Positions 11,701 to 62,900 are shown, numbered from the stretch's first letter. The stretch: 64,000 nucleotides of DNA from Candidatus Omnitrophota bacterium (GCA_043812935.1 JBDRLO010000040.1:7779-71778), one strand, 5' to 3'. Notes: a model not told the origin generated them from the sequence alone. A program made the numbers and translations.

Positions 11701-11756
11701 TTTCGCCTCCATAATAAATTGTGTCATTTGCTAGTTCCTTCATTAAACATAGAATA

Positions 11757-11786
11757 AACCAGCTAACCGGCCAACTGGCTAACCAA
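11757..11786 (-). repeat. 8-nt-periodic GGTTAGCC-type array directly after the mnmE stop
   Basis: Minus strand TTGGTTAG CCAGTTGG CCGGTTAG CTGGTT. Confidence 0.6.
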
Positions 11787-11788
11787 AT

Positions 11789-24576: not shown

Positions 24577-24615
24577 AACTCCCTCCATTTAATGGTTAAT
24601 GGGGACTGGTTAATG

Positions 24616-24690
24616 GGGACAGCTACCATTTATTAAACAACAAAAAGCGGGAAACTAAGTTTTCTATTTTTAATAAATGGTAGCTGTCCC
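24616..24690 (-). repeat. 19-bp perfect-stem hairpin downstream of helicase copy A
   Basis: GGGACAGCTACCATTTATT (24616-24634) pairs with AATAAATGGTAGCTGTCCC (24672-24690); 37-nt loop. The minus-strand head reads TAGGGACAG, like the REP heads. Confidence 0.8.
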
Positions 24691-24693
24691 TAT

Positions 24694-26151
24694 TTATAAT
24701 TCTATAACCGGTTCATTTTCTGAATCGAATTCAGAATCAAGCATGCGGGAACTTGCCTGCCAGACTTCATAATCTTCGTCGGCAAGTTCTTCTAAAAACC
24801 GGCTTCGCGGCGCGCTTACAGCGCCTAACTGATAATCATAACGCATAGCGGGATGCACCATATATAAATATTTTCTAGCCCGTGTAACAGCAACATAAAA
24901 AAGACGTCTTTCTTCTTCCATTTCAGCTTCGCTATTCGATGATTTTGAATGAGGAAACTGCCCGTCACAAAGCCCTATAAGAAATACTGCATCCCACTCC
25001 AACCCTTTTGCCTGGTGAATAGTTGAAAGCACAAGTTGTCCGGTCTCTTCAGAAAATGAAAAAGCGTTTGTCTCCCCGCGGAAACCTTCCTGAAGAGACG
25101 TATCGTTAACAAAATCCTTAACTGTTTCATAATCATGTGAAAAATTCACAAGTTCGCGAATATCTTCAATTCGTTCTTTAGCATTTTCATACGCCGCTAA
25201 AACATGCATTTCATATCCTGAATCCAATATTCGTTCCACAATATCAGCAATGTTTGTTTCACCGCGAATATCCGAAGTTATTGCCCGCATTATTTTCTGA
25301 AAAACCGAATATCCTGCCTGCACTTTTGAGGGGAACACTCCAGACACATCATCAGAAACAAACTGGTTTATACTTTTACCTTCCTTTTTAAAACGTTCAT
25401 AAATCTTTGCGGCATATCCCGGACCGATACCAGGCCAAAGCGTCAAGGCCCTGATCCAGGAAGTTTCATCCAAAGGATTAGCCAGAATTTTCATGTATGC
25501 TAATACGTCTTTTATATGCGCTTGTTCAAAAAAACGAAGCCCCCCGCGAACAACATAAAAAATCCCTCGTTTAACCAGTTCCATTTCAAGTTCCGCAGAT
25601 TGATAATGCGCTCGAAAAAGAACAGCAATATTTTTTATATCAACACCTTCGTCCAAAAGCTCTTTTATCCTTTGGACGACAAAAGATGCCTGGGAATACA
25701 AATCTCTAACTTCAACAAGAGCGGGCATTGAAAGAGATTCATTCACGGTTTTCAGTTCTTTTTGAAACTGGTTATCATTATTTAAAAGTGAATCATTTGC
25801 AAGAGCAACAATTTCAGGAGTAGAACGGTAATTTGTTTCCAGTTTAAATACTTTTACATTATCAAACTTTTCAGGAAATTTAAGTATATTTTCGACTCGC
25901 GCGCCCCGGAAGGAATAAATAGACTGCGCGTCATCGCCCACTGCCAGAATATTTTTGTGTTTTTCGCCGAGAATATCAATTATTTCCGCCTGCAGATAAT
26001 TCGTATCCTGATATTCGTCAACCATTATATATTTAAACTTGTCACTAAACTTCTCTCTTACTTCTTTTACATTTTCCAGCAAATATTTCCAGTTAATCAA
26101 AAGATCGTCATAATCCATATTTTCTGTTTCGCGTTTTTTCTTTTCATACAT
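24694..26151 (-). CDS. UvrD/PcrA-family helicase, N-terminally truncated paralogous copy (lacks the Walker A domain)
   Basis: 485-aa intact ORF starting at MYEKKKRETENMDYDDLL, which aligns to about residue 195 of the upstream copy. Contains VDEYQDTN, TNYRST, TIHQAKGLEW and VAVTRA motifs. Confidence 0.75.
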   Translation of the reverse strand: MYEKKKRETENMDYDDLLINWKYLLENVKEVREKFSDKFKYIMVDEYQDTNYLQAEIIDILGEKHKNILAVGDDAQSIYSFRGARVENILKFPEKFDNVKVFKLETNYRSTPEIVALANDSLLNNDNQFQKELKTVNESLSMPALVEVRDLYSQASFVVQRIKELLDEGVDIKNIAVLFRAHYQSAELEMELVKRGIFYVVRGGLRFFEQAHIKDVLAYMKILANPLDETSWIRALTLWPGIGPGYAAKIYERFKKEGKSINQFVSDDVSGVFPSKVQAGYSVFQKIMRAITSDIRGETNIADIVERILDSGYEMHVLAAYENAKERIEDIRELVNFSHDYETVKDFVNDTSLQEGFRGETNAFSFSEETGQLVLSTIHQAKGLEWDAVFLIGLCDGQFPHSKSSNSEAEMEEERRLFYVAVTRARKYLYMVHPAMRYDYQLGAVSAPRSRFLEELADEDYEVWQASSRMLDSEFDSENEPVIEL

Positions 26152-26224
26152 ATCTTTAATTGTTTTAATTTCATTGAAAAATTTAAAAAAATAAGGAAAT
26201 CGTTCATCTAATACTTTTTAATGG

Positions 26225-26299
26225 GGGACAGCTACCATTTATTAAACAACAAAAAGCGGGAAACTAAGTTTTCTATTTTCAATAAATGGTAGCTGTCCC
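26225..26299 (-). repeat. second copy of the 19-bp-stem hairpin (downstream of helicase copy B)
   Basis: Same arms as 24616-24690 and the same 37-nt loop with one difference. Confidence 0.8.
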
Positions 26300-26321
26300 T
26301 ATTTATATACGTGGAACGCAT

Positions 26322-28365
26322 TCACAACTCTATTATGGGTTCTCTTTCTGAATCAAATTCTGGATTCAACATCTGGGAACTTGCCCGCCAGACTTCATAA
26401 TCTTCACCTGAAAGTTCTTCTAAAAACCGGCTTCGAGGCGCGCTTACGGTTCCCAACTGGTAATCATACCGAGTACACGGATGCATCATATATAGGTGTT
26501 TTTTTGCTCTTGTCACGGCAACATAAAAAAGACGTCTTTCTTCTTCCATTTCAGCGTCACTATTCGCTGACTTTGAATGCGGAAACTGTCCATCGCAAAG
26601 ACCGATGAGAAATACCGCATCCCATTCCAATCCTTTTGCCTGGTGTATGGTTGAAAGTACTAGCTGACTGGACTCTTCTGAAAACGAAAAAGCGTTTGTT
26701 TCGCCACGAAACCCCTTCCTGGAGAGAAGTATCACTCACAAAATCTTTAATCGTTTCATAATCGTGCGAAAAATTTACAAGTTCCCGAATGTCATCAATT
26801 CGTTCTTTCGCGTTTTCATACGTTGCTAAAACATGTGTTTCATACCCTAAATCTAATATGCGTTCCACTATGTCCGCTATATTTGTTTCGCCGCTTATGT
26901 CCGAAGTTATTGCTCTCATTATTTTTTGAAAGATTGAATACCCCGCGCGAACTCTTGCAGGAAACGCGATAGACACATCGTCCGAAACAAACCGGTTTAT
27001 ACTTATGTCTTGTTTTTTAAAAAATTCATAAATTTTCGAGGCATATCCCGGGCCGATCCCCGGCCAAAGGGTTAATGCCCTTATCCATGAAGTTTCATCC
27101 AGCGGATTAGCCAGAATCTTCATGTACGCTAACACGTCTTTTATGTGCGCTTGCTCAAAAAAACGCAGTCCCCCGCGAACAACGTAAGAAATCCCGCGTT
27201 TAACCAATCCCATTTCCAATTCCGCAGATTGATAATGTGCCCTAAAAAGAACGGCAATGTTTTTTATATCAACTCCCTCGTCCAAAAGTTCTTTTATTCT
27301 TTGGACAACAAAAGACGCCTGAGAATATAGATCTCTAACTTCAACAAGAGCAGGCATTGAAAGAGATTCATTCACTGTTTTTAATTCTTTTTGGAACTGG
27401 TTATCATTATTTAAAAGCGAATCATTAGCAAGCGCTACAATTTCAGGGGTAGACCTATAATTAGTTTCTAATTTAAATATTTTTACGTTATCGAATTTTT
27501 CGGGAAACTGTAATATGTTTTCGACCCGTGCCCCTCGAAAAGAATAAATAGATTGCGCATCGTCACCTACGGCCAAAATATTTCGATGTTTTCCGCCAAG
27601 AATATCAACTATCTCAGCCTGCATATAATTTGTGTCCTGGTACTCATCAACCATTATATACCTAAATTTGTTACTGAATTTTTCTCTTACTTCTTCTACG
27701 TTCTCAAGTAAATACTTCCATCTAAACAAAAGATCGTCATAATCCATGTTTTCTGTTTCGCGTTTTTTCTTTTCATACATATCTTTTATTTTGTTTATTT
27801 CGTCCTTGAATTTAAAAAAATAAGGATATCGCGCATCTAATACTTTTTCCAAAGTTCTTTTTGTGTTTACCGAAAGGCTTATTATCGCTTGCATCACAGA
27901 CGCCTTCGGAAACTTTTCGCCTTTAGGCAAGGCTTTAACAACTGTCTTCGTACAACTTTTTATCAAGTCACGTGAATCCTGCTGGTCTAAAATACCAAAA
28001 TCTCTTGTAAACCCTATCTTTTCAGCGTACATTCTGAGGGTTCTATTACCTACATGATGAAACGTTCCGCTCCACAACCCTTTCGGGCTATACCTTAAGA
28101 GTCTCTCCGTCCGTTCCCGCATTTCCCGAGCGGCTTTATTCGTAAAAGTCATAAGAAGTATATTTTGAGGAGGGACTCCCCGTTCTAAAAGATAGGCCAA
28201 CCTGTAAATCAAGGTTCTAGTTTTACCGCTTCCGGCACCCGCAAGGACAAGACAAGGCCCTTCCGCCTGCGTAACAACTTCATACTGTTGTTCGTTAAGG
28301 CTCTCCGCAAAATTTATGTGCGTTTCTATGGTTTCTGAACTTTCGTTTAGGATATATCTCTTCAT
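26322..28365 (-). pseudogene. UvrD/PcrA-family ATP-dependent DNA helicase, full length but interrupted by a 1-nt frameshift
   Basis: Walker A AGAGSGKT, VDEYQDTN, and so on. ORFs 26560-28365 and 26322-26735 overlap. Relative to copy A there is one extra C in the run at 26712-26715 (minus strand CAGGAAGGGGTTT versus CAGGAAGGTTTC). Confidence 0.8.
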
Positions 28366-42812: not shown

Positions 42813-42882
42813 GGACAGGCACAAGGACCTGTTCCTACATATTTATTTTTAGGTCCCGGACAGGGACAAGCCCTGTCCCTAC
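42813..42882 (-). repeat. two adjacent REP-like palindromes
   Basis: GGACAGGcacaaggaCCTGTTCCTAC (42813-42838) and GGACAGGGacaaGCCCTGTCCCTAC (42858-42882). The GTAGGG head is on the minus strand. Confidence 0.8.
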
Positions 42883-42929
42883 GTTATTTTCATCAATTTT
42901 TAAAAATATATTCTCTCGATCTTTGAAAG

Positions 42930-43394: not shown

Positions 43395-43420
43395 CTTACT
43401 CCTCAGCATTCCACACTATT

Positions 43421-43535
43421 ATATTGATTTGGCATATCACACCATTTTTTCGATAATCTTACCAATTATTGATGATTTTGTATTTTTTATCTGTTCTCAC
43501 AACACTACTCGAAATCACCAGTCCATATTTTACTT
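43421..43535 (-). pseudogene. second, more decayed relic of the RAYT-like gene
   Basis: About 80 percent identical by eye to 45236-45310 (CACTATTATATTGATTTGGCATATCACACCATT...CCAATTATTGATGATTTTGTA). It translates in broken frames to SIIGKIIEK / WCDMPNQYNSVE. Confidence 0.5.
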
Positions 43536-43547
43536 CAATGATCCTCT

Positions 43548-43571
43548 GTAGGGGCAAGGCATGCCTTGCCC
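43548..43571 (+). repeat. REP-like palindrome
   Basis: GTAGGGGCAAGGCATGCCTTGCCC. Confidence 0.8.
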
Positions 43572-45159: not shown

Positions 45160-45468
45160 TTATTCCCCCTTCAATTTATGCATAAATACAATACCATGCA
45201 CCTGGTTAGGCATGACAATATATTTATCCAATTCGACATTATTATATTGTGTTGGTATATTACACCATTGTTTATCAATAATTTGACCAATTATTGATAA
45301 TTGTACATCATTACGGGAGGACGCCCCTCGGGTATACTCAGGATTTCCTTCGGTCTCAAAGCCCTCCCCTACGTTATTTTTATATTCACCGAATATATTT
45401 TGTCTGTTTTCTGAACACACGATTACAAAATAATAACCGTTTAACGAATAATCGTAATTTTTTAATCA
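45160..45468 (-). pseudogene. relic of a REP-associated tyrosine transposase (RAYT; IS200/IS605-like Y1 HUH family), truncated at both ends
   Basis: In-frame peptide LKNYDYSLNGYYFVIVCSENRQNIFGEY...LSIIGQIIDKQWCNIPTQYNNVELDKYIVMPNQVHGIVF matches the RLKxYDYS..YFxTxCT..R..FG...W..IP......LDxFVVMPNHxHGIV pattern. A stop lies just upstream of LKNYDYS, the HUH motif is degraded to QVH, and the catalytic-Tyr C-terminal half is absent. Confidence 0.7.
45315..45372 (-). repeat. long-loop REP-like element lying inside the RAYT relic
   Basis: GGGAGGacgcccctcgggtatactcaggatttccttcggtctcaaagCCCTCCCCTAC. It encodes the extra GEGFETEGNPEYTRGASSRND segment. Confidence 0.7.
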
Positions 45469-45520
45469 GATATGTTTTCTTATTATTAATTTTTCCATAT
45501 AATTGCATGCACTTGAACTC

Positions 45521-47523: not shown

Positions 47524-47589
47524 AGCGGGACAGGCATGCCTGTCCCCTACATCAATTAACCGACTAACCGGCTAACTGGCTAACCAAAA
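47524..47589 (-). repeat. composite post-stop element: 8-nt array plus REP palindrome acting as the fba terminator
   Basis: Minus strand after the stop: TTTTGGTTAG CCAGTTAG CCGGTTAG TCGGTTAA TTGATGTAGGGGACAGGCATGCCTGTCCCGCTTTTGTG. Confidence 0.8.
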
Positions 47590-53427: not shown

Positions 53428-53493
53428 GGGCGGGGAAACCCCGCCCCTACACTACAAAAACGGCTAACCGGCGAACCAATCAACCAGCCAGCC
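53428..53493 (-). repeat. composite post-stop element (8-nt array overlapping the grx 3-prime end plus REP palindrome)
   Basis: Minus strand GGCTGGCT GGTTGATT GGTTCGCC GGTTAGCC G TTTTTGTAGTGTAGGGGCGGGGTTTCCCCGCCC. Confidence 0.75.
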
Positions 53494-54845: not shown

Positions 54846-54993
54846 GGACAGGCTCGGGGGCCTGTCCCTACACTAACTAACTGGATCGGCGTCGAAGGAC
54901 AGGCTCGGGGGCCTGTCCCTACACTAACTAACTGGATCGGCATCGAAGGACAGGCTCGGGGGCCTGTCCCTACATCAATTAACTAGCTAACTG
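54846..54993 (-). repeat. three tandem REP units (51-bp period) plus GTTAG-type tail, between dfx and rbr
   Basis: GGACAGGCTCGGGGGCCTGTCCCTAC at 54846, 54897 and 54948. The 25-nt linker ACTAACTAACTGGATCGGC(G/A)TCGAA is repeated. The tail reads ATCAATTAACTAGCTAACTG. Confidence 0.9.
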
Positions 54994-54997
54994 TTTT

Positions 54998-55375
54998 TTA
55001 TACTTTCCAGAGGCCATGCACTGTACAGAATTCTCTGACTTCCTGTATTTCTGATTTCAAAAGGCAAACTTCGGCTTCCGGAGCCTGCCCGGGTTTTAAC
55101 TCTACACGTATAACTCTATCGTCACTTAAAACCTCTATGAACTTTATATAATGTTTTTCTTCCATCGGATGCGGCACACTCCCGATTTTTACCTTTGTTC
55201 CGGCATCTGTTTCTTCCATCACGGGAACGTGTTTTTCTTTTCCTTCGTCTTCTGTTTTTGCTTCTAACTTTTTCATTGGCTCATCACAACACACCAAGGA
55301 AGGCGCACCTTCATGAGTTATTTCAACCACATTTCCGCAAATTTCACATCGATACAATTCTCTAAGCCGGGTCAT
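54998..55375 (-). CDS. dfx: desulfoferrodoxin (2Fe superoxide reductase)
   Basis: N-terminal desulforedoxin YRCEICGNVVEI...VCCDEPM. Centre II ligands KHVPV, HPMEEKHYI and CTVHGLW. Confidence 0.92.
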   Translation of the reverse strand: MTRLRELYRCEICGNVVEITHEGAPSLVCCDEPMKKLEAKTEDEGKEKHVPVMEETDAGTKVKIGSVPHPMEEKHYIKFIEVLSDDRVIRVELKPGQAPEAEVCLLKSEIQEVREFCTVHGLWKV

Positions 55376-59752: not shown

Positions 59753-59792
59753 TTGTATTTTATCTCTTTATTTGTACTCTGCCACGTGTTAC

Positions 59793-59902
59793 GGACAGGC
59801 ACAGGAGCCCTATACCACGCAGGGTATAGGGCAAGACCTGTCCCTACCGGCAAACCAACCAGCAAAACAGCAAACCGGCTAACTGGCCAACCGGCTAACC
59901 AA
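59793..59902 (-). repeat. composite post-stop element: seven 8-nt units plus nested-hairpin REP
   Basis: Minus strand after the stop: TTGGTTAG CCGGTTGG CCAGTTAG CCGGTTTG CTGTTTTG CTGGTTGG TTTGCCGG TAGGGACAGGtcttgCCCTATACCctgcgtGGTATAGGGctcctgtgCCTGTCC. Confidence 0.85.
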
Positions 59903-62900
59903 TCACCCCGCCACCTTCACTCCGTTACGGCCGCTTTCTTTAACGTCATATAACGCTTTATCCGCTTCTTCCAAAAGTTTTATCCGGTCTGTGCCGTCTT
60001 CCAGTTCTGAAATGCCTATACTTACCGTCACTTTTAATTCTTCTTCTCCGCTCCGGCCCGCGTATTTCACCTTATGTATTTCAACTGCCCGTCTTATACG
60101 GTCAGCAATCCTTCGGCTGGCCTCTTTTCCGGTTTCCGGCATTACTGCCACAAATTCATCTCCACCGTATCTCGCGGACAAATCGCTTTTTCTCAAGTTG
60201 TTCATAATCAAATCAGATACGCTTCTTATAACCAAATCTCCCACTTGATGCCCATACCGGTCATTAAAATCTTTAAAATGATCTATATCTATCATCATTA
60301 CACTTAATCGTTTTCCATATCTTTTTGCCTGTTCAACGCTTTTCATTAAATAGTTTTCAAAAAATACGTGGTTATATAATCCCGTCAATCCGTCCGTAAC
60401 GGCTCTCTTATATAATCTCGCGTTTTCGATTGATACTCCTGCCTGGCTTGCAATTAAATGCAGCACCCATAAATCTTCCCGGGTAAATAGCCCCTTAACT
60501 AAATGGTTATCAAGATATATTACTCCTATCATTTCTCTTCTGGCTTTTATGGGCACGCATAATACCGACCTCAATCCTGACCTGACTACACTTACTTTAT
60601 TCTTCAGCTCTTCATCTGCTGACGCGTCTTCTATTATCACAGCTTCTTTTTGCCTCTCCACGCGTTCTATAACACTTCGGCTCACCTCAAAAGAGTCAGC
60701 ATTATGCCTTTCTGATTCTATATTTTTTACTACTTTTATATCTAATTCCCGTTTCGCTGTTTTTTCTTCGGGATACATTAAAAGTATCCCCCGTTCCGCG
60801 CCCACCAACTCAATTGTCTTCTCCATTATCTTCTCTAAAAGCTCATCCATATCCAACACAGAACTGATATACCTGCTTGTATCCAATACGGCTATCATTT
60901 TTCGTTCAGTTTCCAACTTCTCCTGCTGTGTTAACGCTTTCTGTTCTTCTATTATTACTTCTTCTTTTGTGCCTAAAAACACCTGTGTTTTATCTTCATA
61001 AAGTTTCGCTCCGATTTCTTTGAATATATCGTAAGCTTCCCTAACTCGGGTTCTTGACTCGTCTTCCCTCCCAACCTTTTTCAAAAACCTGCCGTACTCA
61101 TACATGGTTCTTGCTTCTTCAAATCTACGTCCAATACGACTCGTATGCGCGATACTTTTTAGAAAATAGTTTTCTGCCGTCCGGTTTTTTTCGAGTAACG
61201 AATAATACTCTCCTGCGGCTCTTAACGCGCCGCCATAATGGTTTATCCATTTACTGGTTTTCCGTAACGCAGCTTCAACTGCTTTTTTAATTTTTCTTAA
61301 TTGTTCTTTCGGATCTTGTCCGGTGCTATTTTTATACTGTTCTATATATGCTTCCGCTAAATAAACATAAAGATACGTTGTATAATTTTTAAGAAAATTA
61401 TTTTCCTCCCTTAATTTTCTGCCTTTTTCCAATAATTCTATTGCTTTTTCCCAATTACCTGCCATGTATTCCGCGTATCCCAAATTAATGGCAGTGAAAC
61501 AAAATATAAACCAGATTTTTTCCGTACGGCTCAATTCAAGAGCTTTTTCACCATATTCCCGAGATTTTTGGATATCCCCTTTCTCCGCGTAAATAAGGCA
61601 TAACCAGCCTTGAGCATCGCTAATACCATAATTATCGTTTGTTTTATAGACTTCTCTGAAAAATTCCAGAAAAACAAGCAATGCCTTATCATGCAAACCG
61701 TTAAAAAAATAACTATGCCCCAGGCCCTGAACTGCTAAACTCAATTCCCACATATCTCCGATCTTTTTAAAAATATCCCTGCTTTCCTGAAAATACCTGC
61801 AGCTTTTCCGGTATTCCCCTGTCCATTGAAACAAATAACCCATAAACCTTAACGACTGTCCCAGACCTCTTTCATCTCTCATTTCTTTGGCAATAGCTAA
61901 AGCTTTTTTCTGATAACGCATAGCACGTTTAAAAAACGGAATCGTTGAGCAAGCCGCGGAATAGAAACTGATACTTGTCTGCAAGAGTGATGATTTAAAA
62001 AGTTTTGCTTCACTCAGGTTAAGAACTCTTAAAACCACCCATAAAAGACGCGTTATATCGCTGAAAACATATGTCCAGCCCAAAGCTATGTATCCTTTAA
62101 GTGTTTCTATATATTTTTCCTGAACAATTTTGTCTTTTTTCGAAACAAAAACTATGGGGAAAACACAATGAAGAATATGAACAAACAATTCTTTCGCCAA
62201 AAAACCCATCAACATAGATTCAGTAACGGGAAGTTTTTCGCCTAAATAAGAAAACCCTGCCGCAATATTTTTCTCGCAATTCTCCCAATCACCTTTTTTC
62301 CAATAAGCTTCACCGATTCTTCGATAAATAGTATTCTTTTCCAAAGGGTTTGTTTTAAGAGGCAATATCTGTTTAGAAATATTAATAGCTTCATCATTTT
62401 TTCCGATAATTAAATAAACTTCAGTTAGGCCCTCTTTCGCTTTTATCCATTTAGCCTGGCCCTCTAATTTTTTTTCTTCTAAAATTTTTAATACGATTTG
62501 ATAATATTTTATCGCCTCTTCATTTGCATAATCTTCTTTAGCTTTTTCGGCTGCCGGCAAACAATACTCCAGCATTTTTTCATTATCGCCGCCTTCAACA
62601 TAATGATGCGTCAAATCAAACAAAATCTCTTCTTTGTCTCCTCTGTGTAATTTTTCCAGAACTTTTGCCACTTTTAAATGCAATTCTCTTTTTTTTCTGT
62701 CGCCTATTTCTTTATAAAAAGCGTCTTTTATCCTGTCATGCACAAAAAGTATCTCGCCGCGCCATGTACTTTTCTCCAAAAGCTGCAATTCTACTGCTTT
62801 ATCCACCAATGTTATTATTTCTTCCATGGGTTTCCCTATCAGCGCATACAAAAGTTCCATCTTAAATTTTCTACCGATTACCGCGGCCGCTGACAATAAC

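What the first reader, a model, noticed from the sequence alone, without database searches (positions are those of the whole stretch)
45160..45468. Decayed RAYT (REP-associated Y1 transposase) gene carrying a REP inserted in frame
Minus-strand translation gives (stop)LKNYDYSLNGYYFVIVCSENRQNIFGEYKNNV[GEGFETEGNPEYTRGASSRND]VQLSIIGQIIDKQWCNIPTQYNNVELDKYIVMPNQVHGIVFMHKLKGE(stop). Outside the brackets it fits, residue for residue in length, the N-terminal half of the COG1943 REP-associated transposase family (RLKxYDYSxxGxYFxTxCTxxRxxxFGxIxxxxMxLNxxGxIVxxxWxxIPxxxxxxxLDxFVVMPNHxHGIV). The bracketed 63 nt is itself a REP-like hairpin (45315-45372). The first HUH histidine is Q, the extreme N-terminus is cut by a stop, and the Tyr-bearing C-terminal half is missing because the GNAT gene starts at the next base. 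This links the REP family physically to its presumed mobilising enzyme. It also shows the enzyme gene being hit by its own cargo.
Basis: partly seen in the sequence, partly recalled or inferred. Interest (0 to 1): 0.6.

Follow-up and report, generated by a model that had tools for sequence, protein, structure and literature searches.

The report
Dead RAYT gene with inherited in-frame REP
This is the broken remnant of a REP-associated tyrosine transposase gene, and the palindromic repeat inside its reading frame was inherited: close intact relatives carry it too, as already published for this subclass, so the repeat did not kill the gene.

Summary
Window 45160-45498 (minus strand) is a pseudogene of a Y1/HUH REP-associated transposase (RAYT). 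It scores E 1e-22 to 1e-27 against homologues, two of which are intact 175-176 aa PF01797 proteins.

It has four defects:
- a TGA stop where homologues have Arg
- HUH degraded to QVH
- everything after the HUH strand deleted, including the catalytic Tyr
- a GNAT gene abutting the stop codon

The bracketed 63 nt is an insertion relative to the family's insert-free state; removing it restores the basal 15-residue FG...G spacing. It carries a GTAG foot and a GC stem.

All 14 closest relatives, intact ones included, carry a 27-30 nt GTAG hairpin at the same codon and in the same frame. Intact ones also carry a second, inverted copy after HUH. The REP therefore predates the decay. Only a 33-nt expansion of its loop is specific to this copy, and that expansion removes the hairpin's stability (z +1.1).

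In-frame REPs inside tnpA_REP genes are a published hallmark of subclass 2.4 / RAYT group 4 (Quentin et al. 2018). This is an ordinary decayed member of that known kind.

Side observations: inverted identical REP pairs flank the HUH-coding segment, and some relatives have that segment precisely deleted.

The parts
45160..45498 (-). RAYT (TnpA_REP-like Y1 HUH transposase) pseudogene, from the original ATG (45496-45498) to the TAA (45160-45162). It corresponds to residues 1 to about 96 of the 176-aa intact homologues.
   Evidence: Translation; tblastn E 2e-39; the search for homologous proteins E 1.5e-27; DNA alignment with L001, L003, L005 and L006.
45466..45468 (-). In-frame TGA nonsense codon at codon 11, replacing the conserved Arg of the RLKNYDYS motif (AGA/CGN in homologues).
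   Evidence: TGA is an ordinary stop in this window: it ends 6 of 40 long ORFs.
45310..45372 (-). In-frame REP-derived segment of 63 nt (21 codons, VGEGFETEGNPEYTRGASSRN). It has a GTAG foot (45369-45372), a 5' arm GGGAGGGC, a 3' arm GCGTCCTCCC and a GTAAT tail.
   Evidence: The foot, stem and position are the same as REP1 of L003, L004 and L060. It occupies the same codon and phase as REP1 in L001, L005, L006 and L007.
45324..45356 (-). 33-nt (11-codon) expansion inside the REP1 loop (AGACCGAAGGAAATCCTGAGTATACCCGAGGGG). It is private to this copy and its origin is unknown.
   Evidence: Alignment with L003. No match elsewhere in the window or in 166 loci. It removes the hairpin's stability (z +1.1, against -1.7 to -2.0 for the 29-30-nt REP1/REP2 sequences folded from intact homologues).
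45196..45204 (-). Degraded HUH motif Q-V-H (CAG GTG CAT). Homologues have NH[IL]H.
45160..45175 (-). 3' breakpoint. Similarity to homologues ends after ...CAT AAA (45175), where intact genes begin their second, inverted REP (REP2). The remaining TTGAAGGGGGAATAA runs into the GNAT start.
   Evidence: DNA alignment.
43408..43545 (-). Second, more decayed RAYT relic. The core 43408-43477 is 82% identical to relic 1 positions 197-268. There are frameshifts and stops, the REP1 site and its flanks are deleted, and the relic is truncated by the SLOG-family gene start at 43409.
   Evidence: D7, D10; E 4e-13.
43548..43571 (+). Canonical GTAG REP (GTAGGGGCAAGGCATGCCTTGCCC) immediately upstream of relic 2 and inverted relative to it. 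This is the REPtron-like arrangement.
   Evidence: dG -8.9, z -3.4.
42868..42927 (-). Possible third RAYT fragment: about 45 nt resembling the FGEYKNN-coding flank, followed by most of the GTAG REP at 42858-42882 (GTAGGGACAGGGCTTGTCCCTGTCC); the aligned stretch covers its first 15 nt.
   Evidence: blastn E 0.008. The local alignment score beats 200 of 200 shuffles against relic 1, L001, L003, L005 and L007. Tentative.

Best explanation
The locus is a dead copy of a REP-associated tyrosine transposase gene (RAYT / TnpA_REP). Its nearest intact relatives carry the signature motifs of subclass 2.4 of Quentin et al. 2018, which equals RAYT group 4 of Bertels et al. 2017.

In that lineage an ancestral gene acquired a GTAG-footed REP hairpin in frame in the loop after strand beta-1 (site 1). 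It also acquired an inverted copy in the loop between the HUH strand and the following helix (site 2). Both sit in surface loops and are translated as short VGxG...R and ...APT peptides, so intact genes keep them.

The window copy inherited REP1 and then decayed through four changes:
1. An AGA-to-TGA nonsense mutation at codon 11.
2. His-to-Gln in HUH.
3. A 33-nt in-frame expansion in the REP1 loop.
4. A deletion or rearrangement whose left breakpoint lies at the position of REP2. This removed the W and catalytic-Tyr motifs and placed a GNAT gene against the remnant.

It cannot encode an active enzyme.

Shown: homology, the four defects, and the shared position and phase of REP1 in relatives. 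Inferred: the order of events, that REP1 is shared by descent rather than re-inserted, and that the REP2 site promoted the truncation.
For: Homology.

Closest relatives and their DNA:
- L001: GTAGGGGCCGCGCTTGTCCCGGCCCGTAAT
- L005: GTAGGGGCGCCGCTTGCCTGCGCCCG
- L006: GTAGGGGTGCCGCTTGTCTGCGCCCGTAAT
- L003: GTAGGGGAGGGCCTTGCGTCCTCCC...GTAAT
All sit at the window's REP site and in phase 0. The CTTG loop is conserved and the stems differ.

All 14 relatives with at least 48% identity to the relic have a site-1 insert.

REP2 (CGGGCGCAGACAAGC[AG]GCGCCCCTAC) follows HUH in L001, L005 and L006.

Motifs of subclass 2.4 in intact P0004: NHIH, WQ, YIANNP (against Table 1 of PMC6006769).

AlphaFold model of P0004: pLDDT 92. 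REP1-coded residues 42-51 are largely, and REP2-coded residues 97-105 entirely, loop (DSSP marks a short 4-residue helix at 49-52), with dips in confidence. Among the Foldseek hits, 4ER8 (E. coli TnpA_REP) has the best rmsd and query TM-score (3.1 A, TMq 0.59). It is also the best profile hit in PDB (E 3.5e-8).

Family-wide survey: 122 of 156 HUH-bearing ORFs carry a perfect-stem GTRG hairpin inside the ORF.

Literature: PMC6006769 sections 13 and 23.
Against: - The relic itself does not pass Pfam or NCBIfam thresholds. Assignment rests on pairwise homology to intact members.
- No formal phylogeny against the published subclass HMMs was made.
- Stems of REP1 differ between relatives, so gene conversion by, or replacement with, genomic REPs cannot be separated from simple descent.
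- The breakpoint at REP2 is a single coincidence, roughly 8% by chance for a 530-nt gene.
- The source genome could not be found, so an intact paralogue and the genome-wide REP census are unknown.
Confidence: 0.87

Rival explanations
1. One reading: an intact, insert-free RAYT gene in this genome was recently struck by a copy of the genome's own REP. The 63-nt insertion is part of, or the trigger for, its decay.
For: - Relative to the insert-free majority of the family, the 63 nt is an insertion of exactly 21 codons.
- The window holds a GTAG REP family.
- A 33-nt part of the segment is private to this copy.
Against: - The foot, stem and loop of the element are present at the same codon and phase in every close relative, including intact genes.
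- The stem GGGGAGGGC/GCGTCCTCCC matches the internal REP of a homologue from another sample (L003). It matches none of the other REPs in the window, whose stems are GGGACAGG, GGGGCAAGG, GGGGCGAGG and GGGGCGGGG.
- In-frame REPs are compatible with intact genes family-wide.
Confidence: 0.07
2. The 21 residues are just a variable protein loop. The resemblance to a REP is a coincidence of codon choice.
For: - The 63-nt sequence folds no better than shuffles (z +1.1).
- The site is a length-variable loop across the family.
Against: - A GC-rich GTAGGGG...CCC unit sits in a 34-38% GC context.
- The same unit recurs with perfect 6-12 bp stems inside 122 of 156 family ORFs.
- In 21 of 28 genes with hairpins at both sites, the two copies agree within two mismatches, while they differ between genes. 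Protein-level selection cannot produce that.
Confidence: 0.03
3. The remnant still works in a reduced form. Examples: the 86-aa ORF from GTG 45420 acting as a REP-binding protein, or the retained REP acting as an RNA or DNA element that affects expression of the downstream GNAT-DAO genes.
For: - The frame stays open for 101 codons after the TGA.
- The TAA overlaps a plausible AAGGGGG ribosome-binding site for the GNAT ATG.
- REPs can modulate mRNA stability in other bacteria (background knowledge; reviewed in PMC3733652).
Against: - No catalytic Tyr, and HUH is degraded.
- The hairpin is destabilised.
- No promoter-like site lies upstream on the minus strand.
- No conservation data exist for this locus.
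Confidence: 0.03

Closest known systems
TnpA_REP / RAYT subclass 2.4 (Quentin, Siguier, Chandler and Fichant 2018, BMC Genomics 19:475), equal to RAYT group 4 (Bertels, Gallie and Rainey 2017)
   Same: - Y1 HUH fold.
- Motifs NH[IFV]H, WQ and YIxNNP in the intact nearest relatives.
- GT[AG]G-footed long REPs whose stems begin with three G-C pairs, and 'double-foot' REPs.
- The subclass's stated unique feature: REPs inserted in frame inside the tnpA_REP gene.
- Low copy number and a scattered phyletic distribution.
   Different: - The window copy is a pseudogene (stop codon, QVH, no W or Y motifs).
[quoted passage not shown] Here the surviving REP is at the other site, between beta1 and alphaA, which the main text does not discuss for subclass 2.4.
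- The REP carries a private 33-nt loop expansion.
E. coli TnpA_REP (PDB 4ER8) and its REP/BIME substrates (Ton-Hoang et al. 2012; Messing et al. 2012)
   Same: - Best structural and profile match of the family.
- The same logic of a GTAG tetranucleotide at the foot of a hairpin recognised on single-stranded DNA.
   Different: - E. coli belongs to subclass 2.2 (DHLH, WE, YIHYNP). Its REPs flank the gene and do not sit inside it.
- Sequence identity is only about 18%.
Intragenic in-frame palindromic repeats: Rickettsia palindromic elements (Ogata et al. 2000) and intragenic GTAG/CGTC REPs (Di Nocera et al. 2013, PMC3733652)
   Same: A short palindromic repeat is inserted in frame, translated as a surface-loop peptide and tolerated by the host protein.
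   Different: - Here the host gene is the presumed mobilising enzyme itself.
- The sites are recurrent: two fixed loops.
- RPEs are longer (about 100-150 nt) and have no known transposase.
REPINs (Bertels and Rainey 2011)
   Same: Intact relatives carry two near-identical REPs in inverted orientation. A deletion derivative (L164) has them 33 nt apart, which is the REPIN architecture.
   Different: - In intact genes the 'spacer' is about 140 nt of coding sequence that includes HUH.
- The window relic retains only one REP.

Membership tests
Y1 HUH transposase (Pfam PF01797) / RAYT | Significant sequence similarity to bona fide family members | tested here: met
   E 8.5e-22 and 9.2e-22 to P0003 and P0004. 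Both pass PF01797 (34-41 bits against a cutoff of 23) and hit NCBIfam REP_Tyr_transpos at E about 1e-19.
Y1 HUH transposase (Pfam PF01797) / RAYT | The sequence itself passes the curated profile threshold | tested here: not met
   Pfam gives no hit at E up to 10. NCBIfam NF047646 gives 14.8-17.8 bits against a cutoff of 80. This is expected for an N-terminal fragment.
Y1 HUH transposase (Pfam PF01797) / RAYT | HUH metal-binding motif | tested here: not met
   The relic has N-Q-V-H (CAG at 45202-45204). Homologues have NHIH or NHLH.
Y1 HUH transposase (Pfam PF01797) / RAYT | Catalytic tyrosine (Y motif) | tested here: not met
   The region is absent: the ORF ends 10 codons after the H of the QVH motif and the GNAT gene follows. 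No other RAYT-like segment with a Y motif is in the window.
Y1 HUH transposase (Pfam PF01797) / RAYT | Y1 transposase fold resembling TnpA_REP | tested here: met
   Tested on the intact homologue P0004, not on the relic. AF2 pLDDT 92. Against 4ER8: rmsd 3.1 A over 158 columns, probability 1.0. The profile of A4 hits 4er8_A at E 3.5e-8.
RAYT (REP-associated) | GTAG-footed REP hairpins next to the gene and repeated in the genome | tested here: met
   At least 10 GTAGG-footed GC hairpins lie in the window (nine begin GTAGGG, one GTAGGA); the six folded have z from -3.4 to -5.3. One lies directly upstream of relic 2. Only 64 kb of the genome could be examined.
TnpA_REP subclass 2.4 / RAYT group 4 | Key motifs NH[IFV]H, WQ and YIxNNP (Table 1 of PMC6006769) | tested here: inconclusive
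   Met in the nearest intact homologue P0004 (NHIH, WQ, YIANNP); P0003 has NHIH and WQ but YISDNP, one residue off YIxNNP (table). In the relic only the HuH position survives, and it is mutated. No tree or subclass HMM was available.
TnpA_REP subclass 2.4 / RAYT group 4 | REP sequences inserted in frame within the tnpA_REP gene | tested here: met
   45310-45372 is in phase 0. Homologues carry one REP at site 1 and one at site 2.
GTAG-type REP (Di Nocera 2013; Quentin 2018 'long canonical') | 5' GT[AG]G at the foot of a stem whose base is three G-C pairs | tested here: met
   GTAG followed by GGG...CCC.
GTAG-type REP (Di Nocera 2013; Quentin 2018 'long canonical') | Stable short stem-loop (stems of 6-9 bp or more, small loop) | tested here: not met
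   The outer stem of about 7 bp encloses about 45 nt. dG -5.6 kcal/mol, z +1.1, and 168 of 200 shuffles fold at least as well. The 29-30-nt hairpins folded from intact homologues have z -1.7 to -2.0; the L003 version, from a truncated gene, has z -0.8.
GTAG-type REP (Di Nocera 2013; Quentin 2018 'long canonical') | Member of a multi-copy sequence family in the same genome | tested here: inconclusive
   The 63-mer and its stem sequence are unique in the window. Only the generic GTAGGG-plus-GC-stem design recurs. The whole genome is not available.
REPIN | Two REPs in inverted orientation | tested here: not met
   Only REP1 survives in the relic. The pair exists in intact relatives.

The most novel reading that the evidence does not exclude
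In this RAYT lineage the two in-frame REPs form an inverted, concertedly evolving pair that brackets the HUH-coding segment. That is an intragenic REPIN. The pair may be recombinogenic or a substrate of the enzyme itself. It would then produce precise in-frame deletions that give HUH-less proteins carrying a 'double-foot' REP (L165/P0017, P0031, P0037), short REPIN-like doublets (L164/P0005), and truncations at the REP positions such as the window relic. On this reading RAYT genes would be a birthplace of double-foot REPs and REPINs, and would carry a built-in self-inactivation route. [quoted passage not shown] It does not describe this happening inside the gene.
Probability: 0.2. Interest if true: 0.6.

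Novelty: new member of a known kind. Interest (0 to 1): 0.25.

Why it matters
For this window it settles an annotation question. The 86-aa ORF at 45160-45420 is a RAYT pseudogene remnant, not a gene. The REP inside it was inherited rather than acquired by recent self-insertion.

It ties the window's GTAG hairpins to a (now dead) RAYT lineage. It also shows that no active copy lies within these 64 kb.

More generally, the survey made along the way independently confirms the published claim that subclass 2.4 RAYT genes habitually carry their cognate REPs in frame. It adds that 43 of 156 genes carry one at a second site, before HUH, and that paired copies are usually near-identical. This could be followed up as a question about how REPs and REPINs arise.

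Tried and rejected
1. Pfam on the relic, with and without the bracket: no hit.

2. Rfam on the whole window: only two tRNAs.

3. Finding the source genome or an orthologous locus:
- Exact-protein look-up of the GNAT: not on record.
- Metagenome-contig scan: best hit 44%.
So 'search the rest of the genome for an intact paralogue' could only be done for the window, where there is none.

4. Using relic 2 as the uninserted allele. Its deletion spans the REP plus flanking codons and the boundaries are ambiguous in A-rich sequence.

5. Searching for the private 33/36-nt loop sequence elsewhere: no match in the window or in 166 loci.

6. The hypothesis that site 1 is a hotspot because insert-free genes carry a GTAG there (Val-Asp codons). 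Rejected: only 3 of 85 have GTAG and 8 of 85 have GTGG.

7. An alternative genetic code rescuing the TGA. Rejected: TGA ends 6 of 40 long ORFs, and long ORFs cover 80% of the window under code 11.

8. Promoter and terminator scan around the relic: nothing on the minus strand upstream of it.

9. Assembly artefact as the source of the HUH-less variants. Judged unlikely, because REP1 and REP2 share only about 6-nt direct words on one strand and P0017 occurs in two samples. Not formally excluded.

Full report
**1. Observation**

The frame continues upstream. An ATG at 45496-45498 opens MEKLIIRKHI. A TGA follows at 45466-45468, then LKNYDYS.... In homologues the TGA position is the Arg of the conserved R-L-K-N-Y-D-Y motif, coded AGA or CGN.

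TGA is a normal stop in this window. It ends 6 of 40 ORFs of at least 200 codons, and such ORFs cover 80% of the window under code 11.

The ORF ends at TAA 45160-45162. The next base starts a 134-aa GNAT acetyltransferase ORF.

**2. Homology**

The relic does not reach Pfam Y1_Tnp. It touches NCBIfam REP_Tyr_transpos only weakly: E 0.019, or 0.0023 once the bracket is removed.

A search of 5.8 billion proteins returns five relatives at E 1.5e-27 to 9.6e-10 and 49-61% identity. Two are intact 175-176 aa proteins carrying PF01797. These also score E about 1e-19 on REP_Tyr_transpos.

tblastn of these proteins back onto the window gives E 2e-39 for 45498-45175. It finds no other substantial RAYT-like segment, so there is no intact paralogue in the 64 kb.

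phmmer of P0004 against 1.84 billion cluster representatives finds 25,436 relatives at E up to 1e-3.

A profile of 50 full-length members has E. coli TnpA_REP (4ER8) as its best PDB hit (E 3.5e-8). An AlphaFold model of P0004 (pLDDT 92) superposes on 4ER8 at 3.1 A. That is the best rmsd and query TM-score among the Y1 transposase hits.

**3. Is the bracket an insertion?**

Yes, relative to the family's basal state. In 85 of 156 HUH-bearing family ORFs recovered here, the segment from the FG after strand beta-1 to the G of the next helix is exactly 15 residues, for example FGEIVDGEMRLNEAG (protein view). The window without its 21-residue bracket gives 15 residues.

By DNA the unit is 45310-45372. 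Its parts are:
- GTAG foot
- GGGAGGGC arm
- TTTG
- 33 nt
- CGTCCTCCC arm
- GTAAT

**4. Was it a recent hit on this copy?**

No. I fetched the DNA of the closest relatives. Each has a GTAG-footed GC hairpin at the same codon and in the same phase:
- L001, two intact copies: GTAGGGGCCGCGCTTGTCCCGGCCCGTAAT
- L005, intact: GTAGGGGCGCCGCTTGCCTGCGCCCG
- L006: GTAGGGGTGCCGCTTGTCTGCGCCCGTAAT
- L007, intact: the same as L005 plus a partial duplication
- L003/L004: GTAGGGGAGGGCCTTGCGTCCTCCC, followed by a 15-nt partial duplication and GTAAT

The L003 version has the very stem of the window element. None of the window's other REPs do; their stems are GGGACAGG, GGGGCAAGG, GGGGCGAGG and GGGGCGGGG.

All 14 proteins with at least 48% identity to the relic have a VG.../V.EG... 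insert here.

The window element is therefore the clade's inherited 30-nt REP1 plus a private 33-nt insertion in its loop (45324-45356). That 33-mer matches nothing else in the window or in 166 fetched loci.

The expansion removes hairpin stability. The 63-mer folds at -5.6 kcal/mol with z +1.1. The REP1/REP2 sequences folded from the intact genes of L001 and L005 have z -1.7 to -2.0; the L003 version, from a truncated gene, has z -0.8. The window's intergenic REPs have z -3.4 to -5.3.

**5. The second REP and the truncation**

Intact relatives carry a second hairpin in inverted orientation right after the HUH strand...AAT AAT CGGGCGCAGACAAGCGGCGCCCCTAC..., read as RAQTSGAPT.

In the model, REP1-coded residues 42-51 are largely, and REP2-coded residues 97-105 entirely, loop (DSSP marks a short helix at 49-52), with local dips in confidence. 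This explains why they are tolerated.

In the window, similarity to the relatives stops after ...CAT AAA (45175). That is where REP2 would begin. The deletion that removed the W and Tyr motifs therefore has its breakpoint at the REP2 site. This is one coincidence, about 8% by chance, and I treat it as suggestive only. L003's gene is likewise disrupted about 20 nt after its REP2.

**6. Already known**

[quoted passage not shown] P0004 has NHIH, WQ and YIANNP.

Subclass 2.4 equals RAYT group 4 of Bertels et al. 2017. In-frame REPs in other genes were catalogued by Di Nocera et al. 2013.

**7. Independent survey**

I examined 156 HUH-bearing family ORFs from 161 non-duplicate ORFs in the fetched loci.
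- 122 carry at least one perfect-stem GT[AG]G hairpin inside the ORF.
- 43 have a forward copy 25-60 codons before HUH (site 1).
- 88 have a reverse copy after HUH (site 2).
- 28 have both. In 21 of those 28 the two copies agree within two mismatches, while they differ between genes.

The metagenome scan used one pattern that includes the start of the REP (EYKNNVGE). This inflates the site-1 frequency somewhat. The genome scan patterns were neutral.

**8. Other relics and the REP family**

Relic 2 has a core at 43408-43477 that is 82% identical to relic 1 (E 4e-13). It is frameshifted and lacks the REP site together with neighbouring codons, so it is not an empty-site allele. A canonical REP lies immediately upstream of it at 43548-43571 on the plus strand.

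A possible third fragment (42868-42927) combines about 45 nt resembling the FGEYKNN-coding flank with a REP. L001 has an analogous 91-nt fragment.

The window holds at least ten GTAG-footed GC hairpins. Only about 0.1 GTAGGG-plus-6-bp-stem sites would be expected by chance. That figure is my estimate, from about 12.6 random GTAGGG sites multiplied by the chance of a 6-nt complement nearby.

**9. Verdict**

This is a correctly observed but ordinary decayed member of a known RAYT subclass, and its in-frame REP is inherited. The 'hit by its own cargo' event is real in evolutionary terms, but it is old, shared with intact genes, and already published.

The inverted REP pair and the precise HUH-segment deletions lie outside the finding. 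Examples are L165, with junction GTAGGGGCGCCGCTTGTCTGCGCCCCTAC; L164, with REP1, a 33-nt spacer and REP2; and P0031 and P0037. These are the only parts that might repay further work.

Noticed in passing
L165 200-571 (P0017); L164 199-489 (P0005); also P0031 and P0037: Relatives in which the segment between the two in-frame REPs, including HUH, is deleted in frame. L165 is left with a single 'double-foot' REP, GTAGGGGCGCCGCTTGTCTGCGCCCCTAC. L164 keeps REP1, a 33-nt spacer and an inverted REP2, which is a REPIN-like doublet. P0017 occurs in two samples.
   Followed up: partly
L001-L163, family-wide: In 21 of 28 RAYT genes with hairpins both before and after HUH, the two copies are inverted and agree within two mismatches, while they differ between genes. 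This points to concerted evolution or repeated replacement by the genome's current REP.
   Followed up: partly
window 42868-42927 (-); L001 13113-13203: Small isolated fragments made of about 45 nt of the coding flank 5' of REP1, then the REP itself (plus 17 nt in L001, which is 91% identical to its RAYT gene). They occur in two unrelated genomes next to unrelated genes. This may be a recurrent relic type or a mobilisable unit.
   Followed up: partly
window 59788-59847 (-): A 60-nt nested double hairpin. A GTAG REP with stem GGGACAGG/CCTGTCC encloses a second perfect 10-bp hairpin, GCCCTATACC...GGTATAGGGC. dG -15.6 kcal/mol, z -5.3.
   Followed up: partly
window 54846-54998 (-): Three tandem 51-nt units, each made of a GTAG REP (GTAGGGACAGGCCCCCGAGCCTGTCC) plus a 25-nt spacer. 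This resembles a BIME-like cluster.
   Followed up: no
window 11753-11787, 47554-47588, 53446-53488, 59853-59903: Arrays with an 8-nt period (GGCTAACY / GTTAGCCR). Three of the four arrays lie directly 5' of the GTAG foot of a REP (47550, 53450, 59847); none was seen next to 11753. Similar GGCTAA-rich tracts flank RAYT genes in L001 and L164. Significance unknown.
   Followed up: no
window 24615-24698 and 26224-26307; 24692-25384 against 26320-27013: Two 99%-identical 84-nt near-perfect palindromes (GGGGACAGCTACCATTTATT...AATAAATGGTAGCTGTCCC), each preceding one copy of a tandemly duplicated segment of about 0.7 kb (80-82% identity, 1.6-kb spacing).
   Followed up: no
L001 8100-8180, 8760-8840, 10800-10880; L005 830-905 and 1445-1510; L006 150-225; L003 9050-9125: Close relatives' RAYT genes are flanked on both sides by a different structured repeat: a long imperfect hairpin followed by ACGTTATA(G/A)A just before the ATG. 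This motif is absent upstream of the window relic.
   Followed up: no
L003 9551-9613: The nearest relative (P0001) is itself a truncated gene. It is disrupted about 20 nt after its REP2. An ORF whose opening residues (MKKKKYPKEFKARVAMEAIKE) look to me like an IS3-family OrfA (not tested with any tool) starts at the contig end about 60 nt further on, which may indicate IS insertion near an intragenic REP.
   Followed up: no
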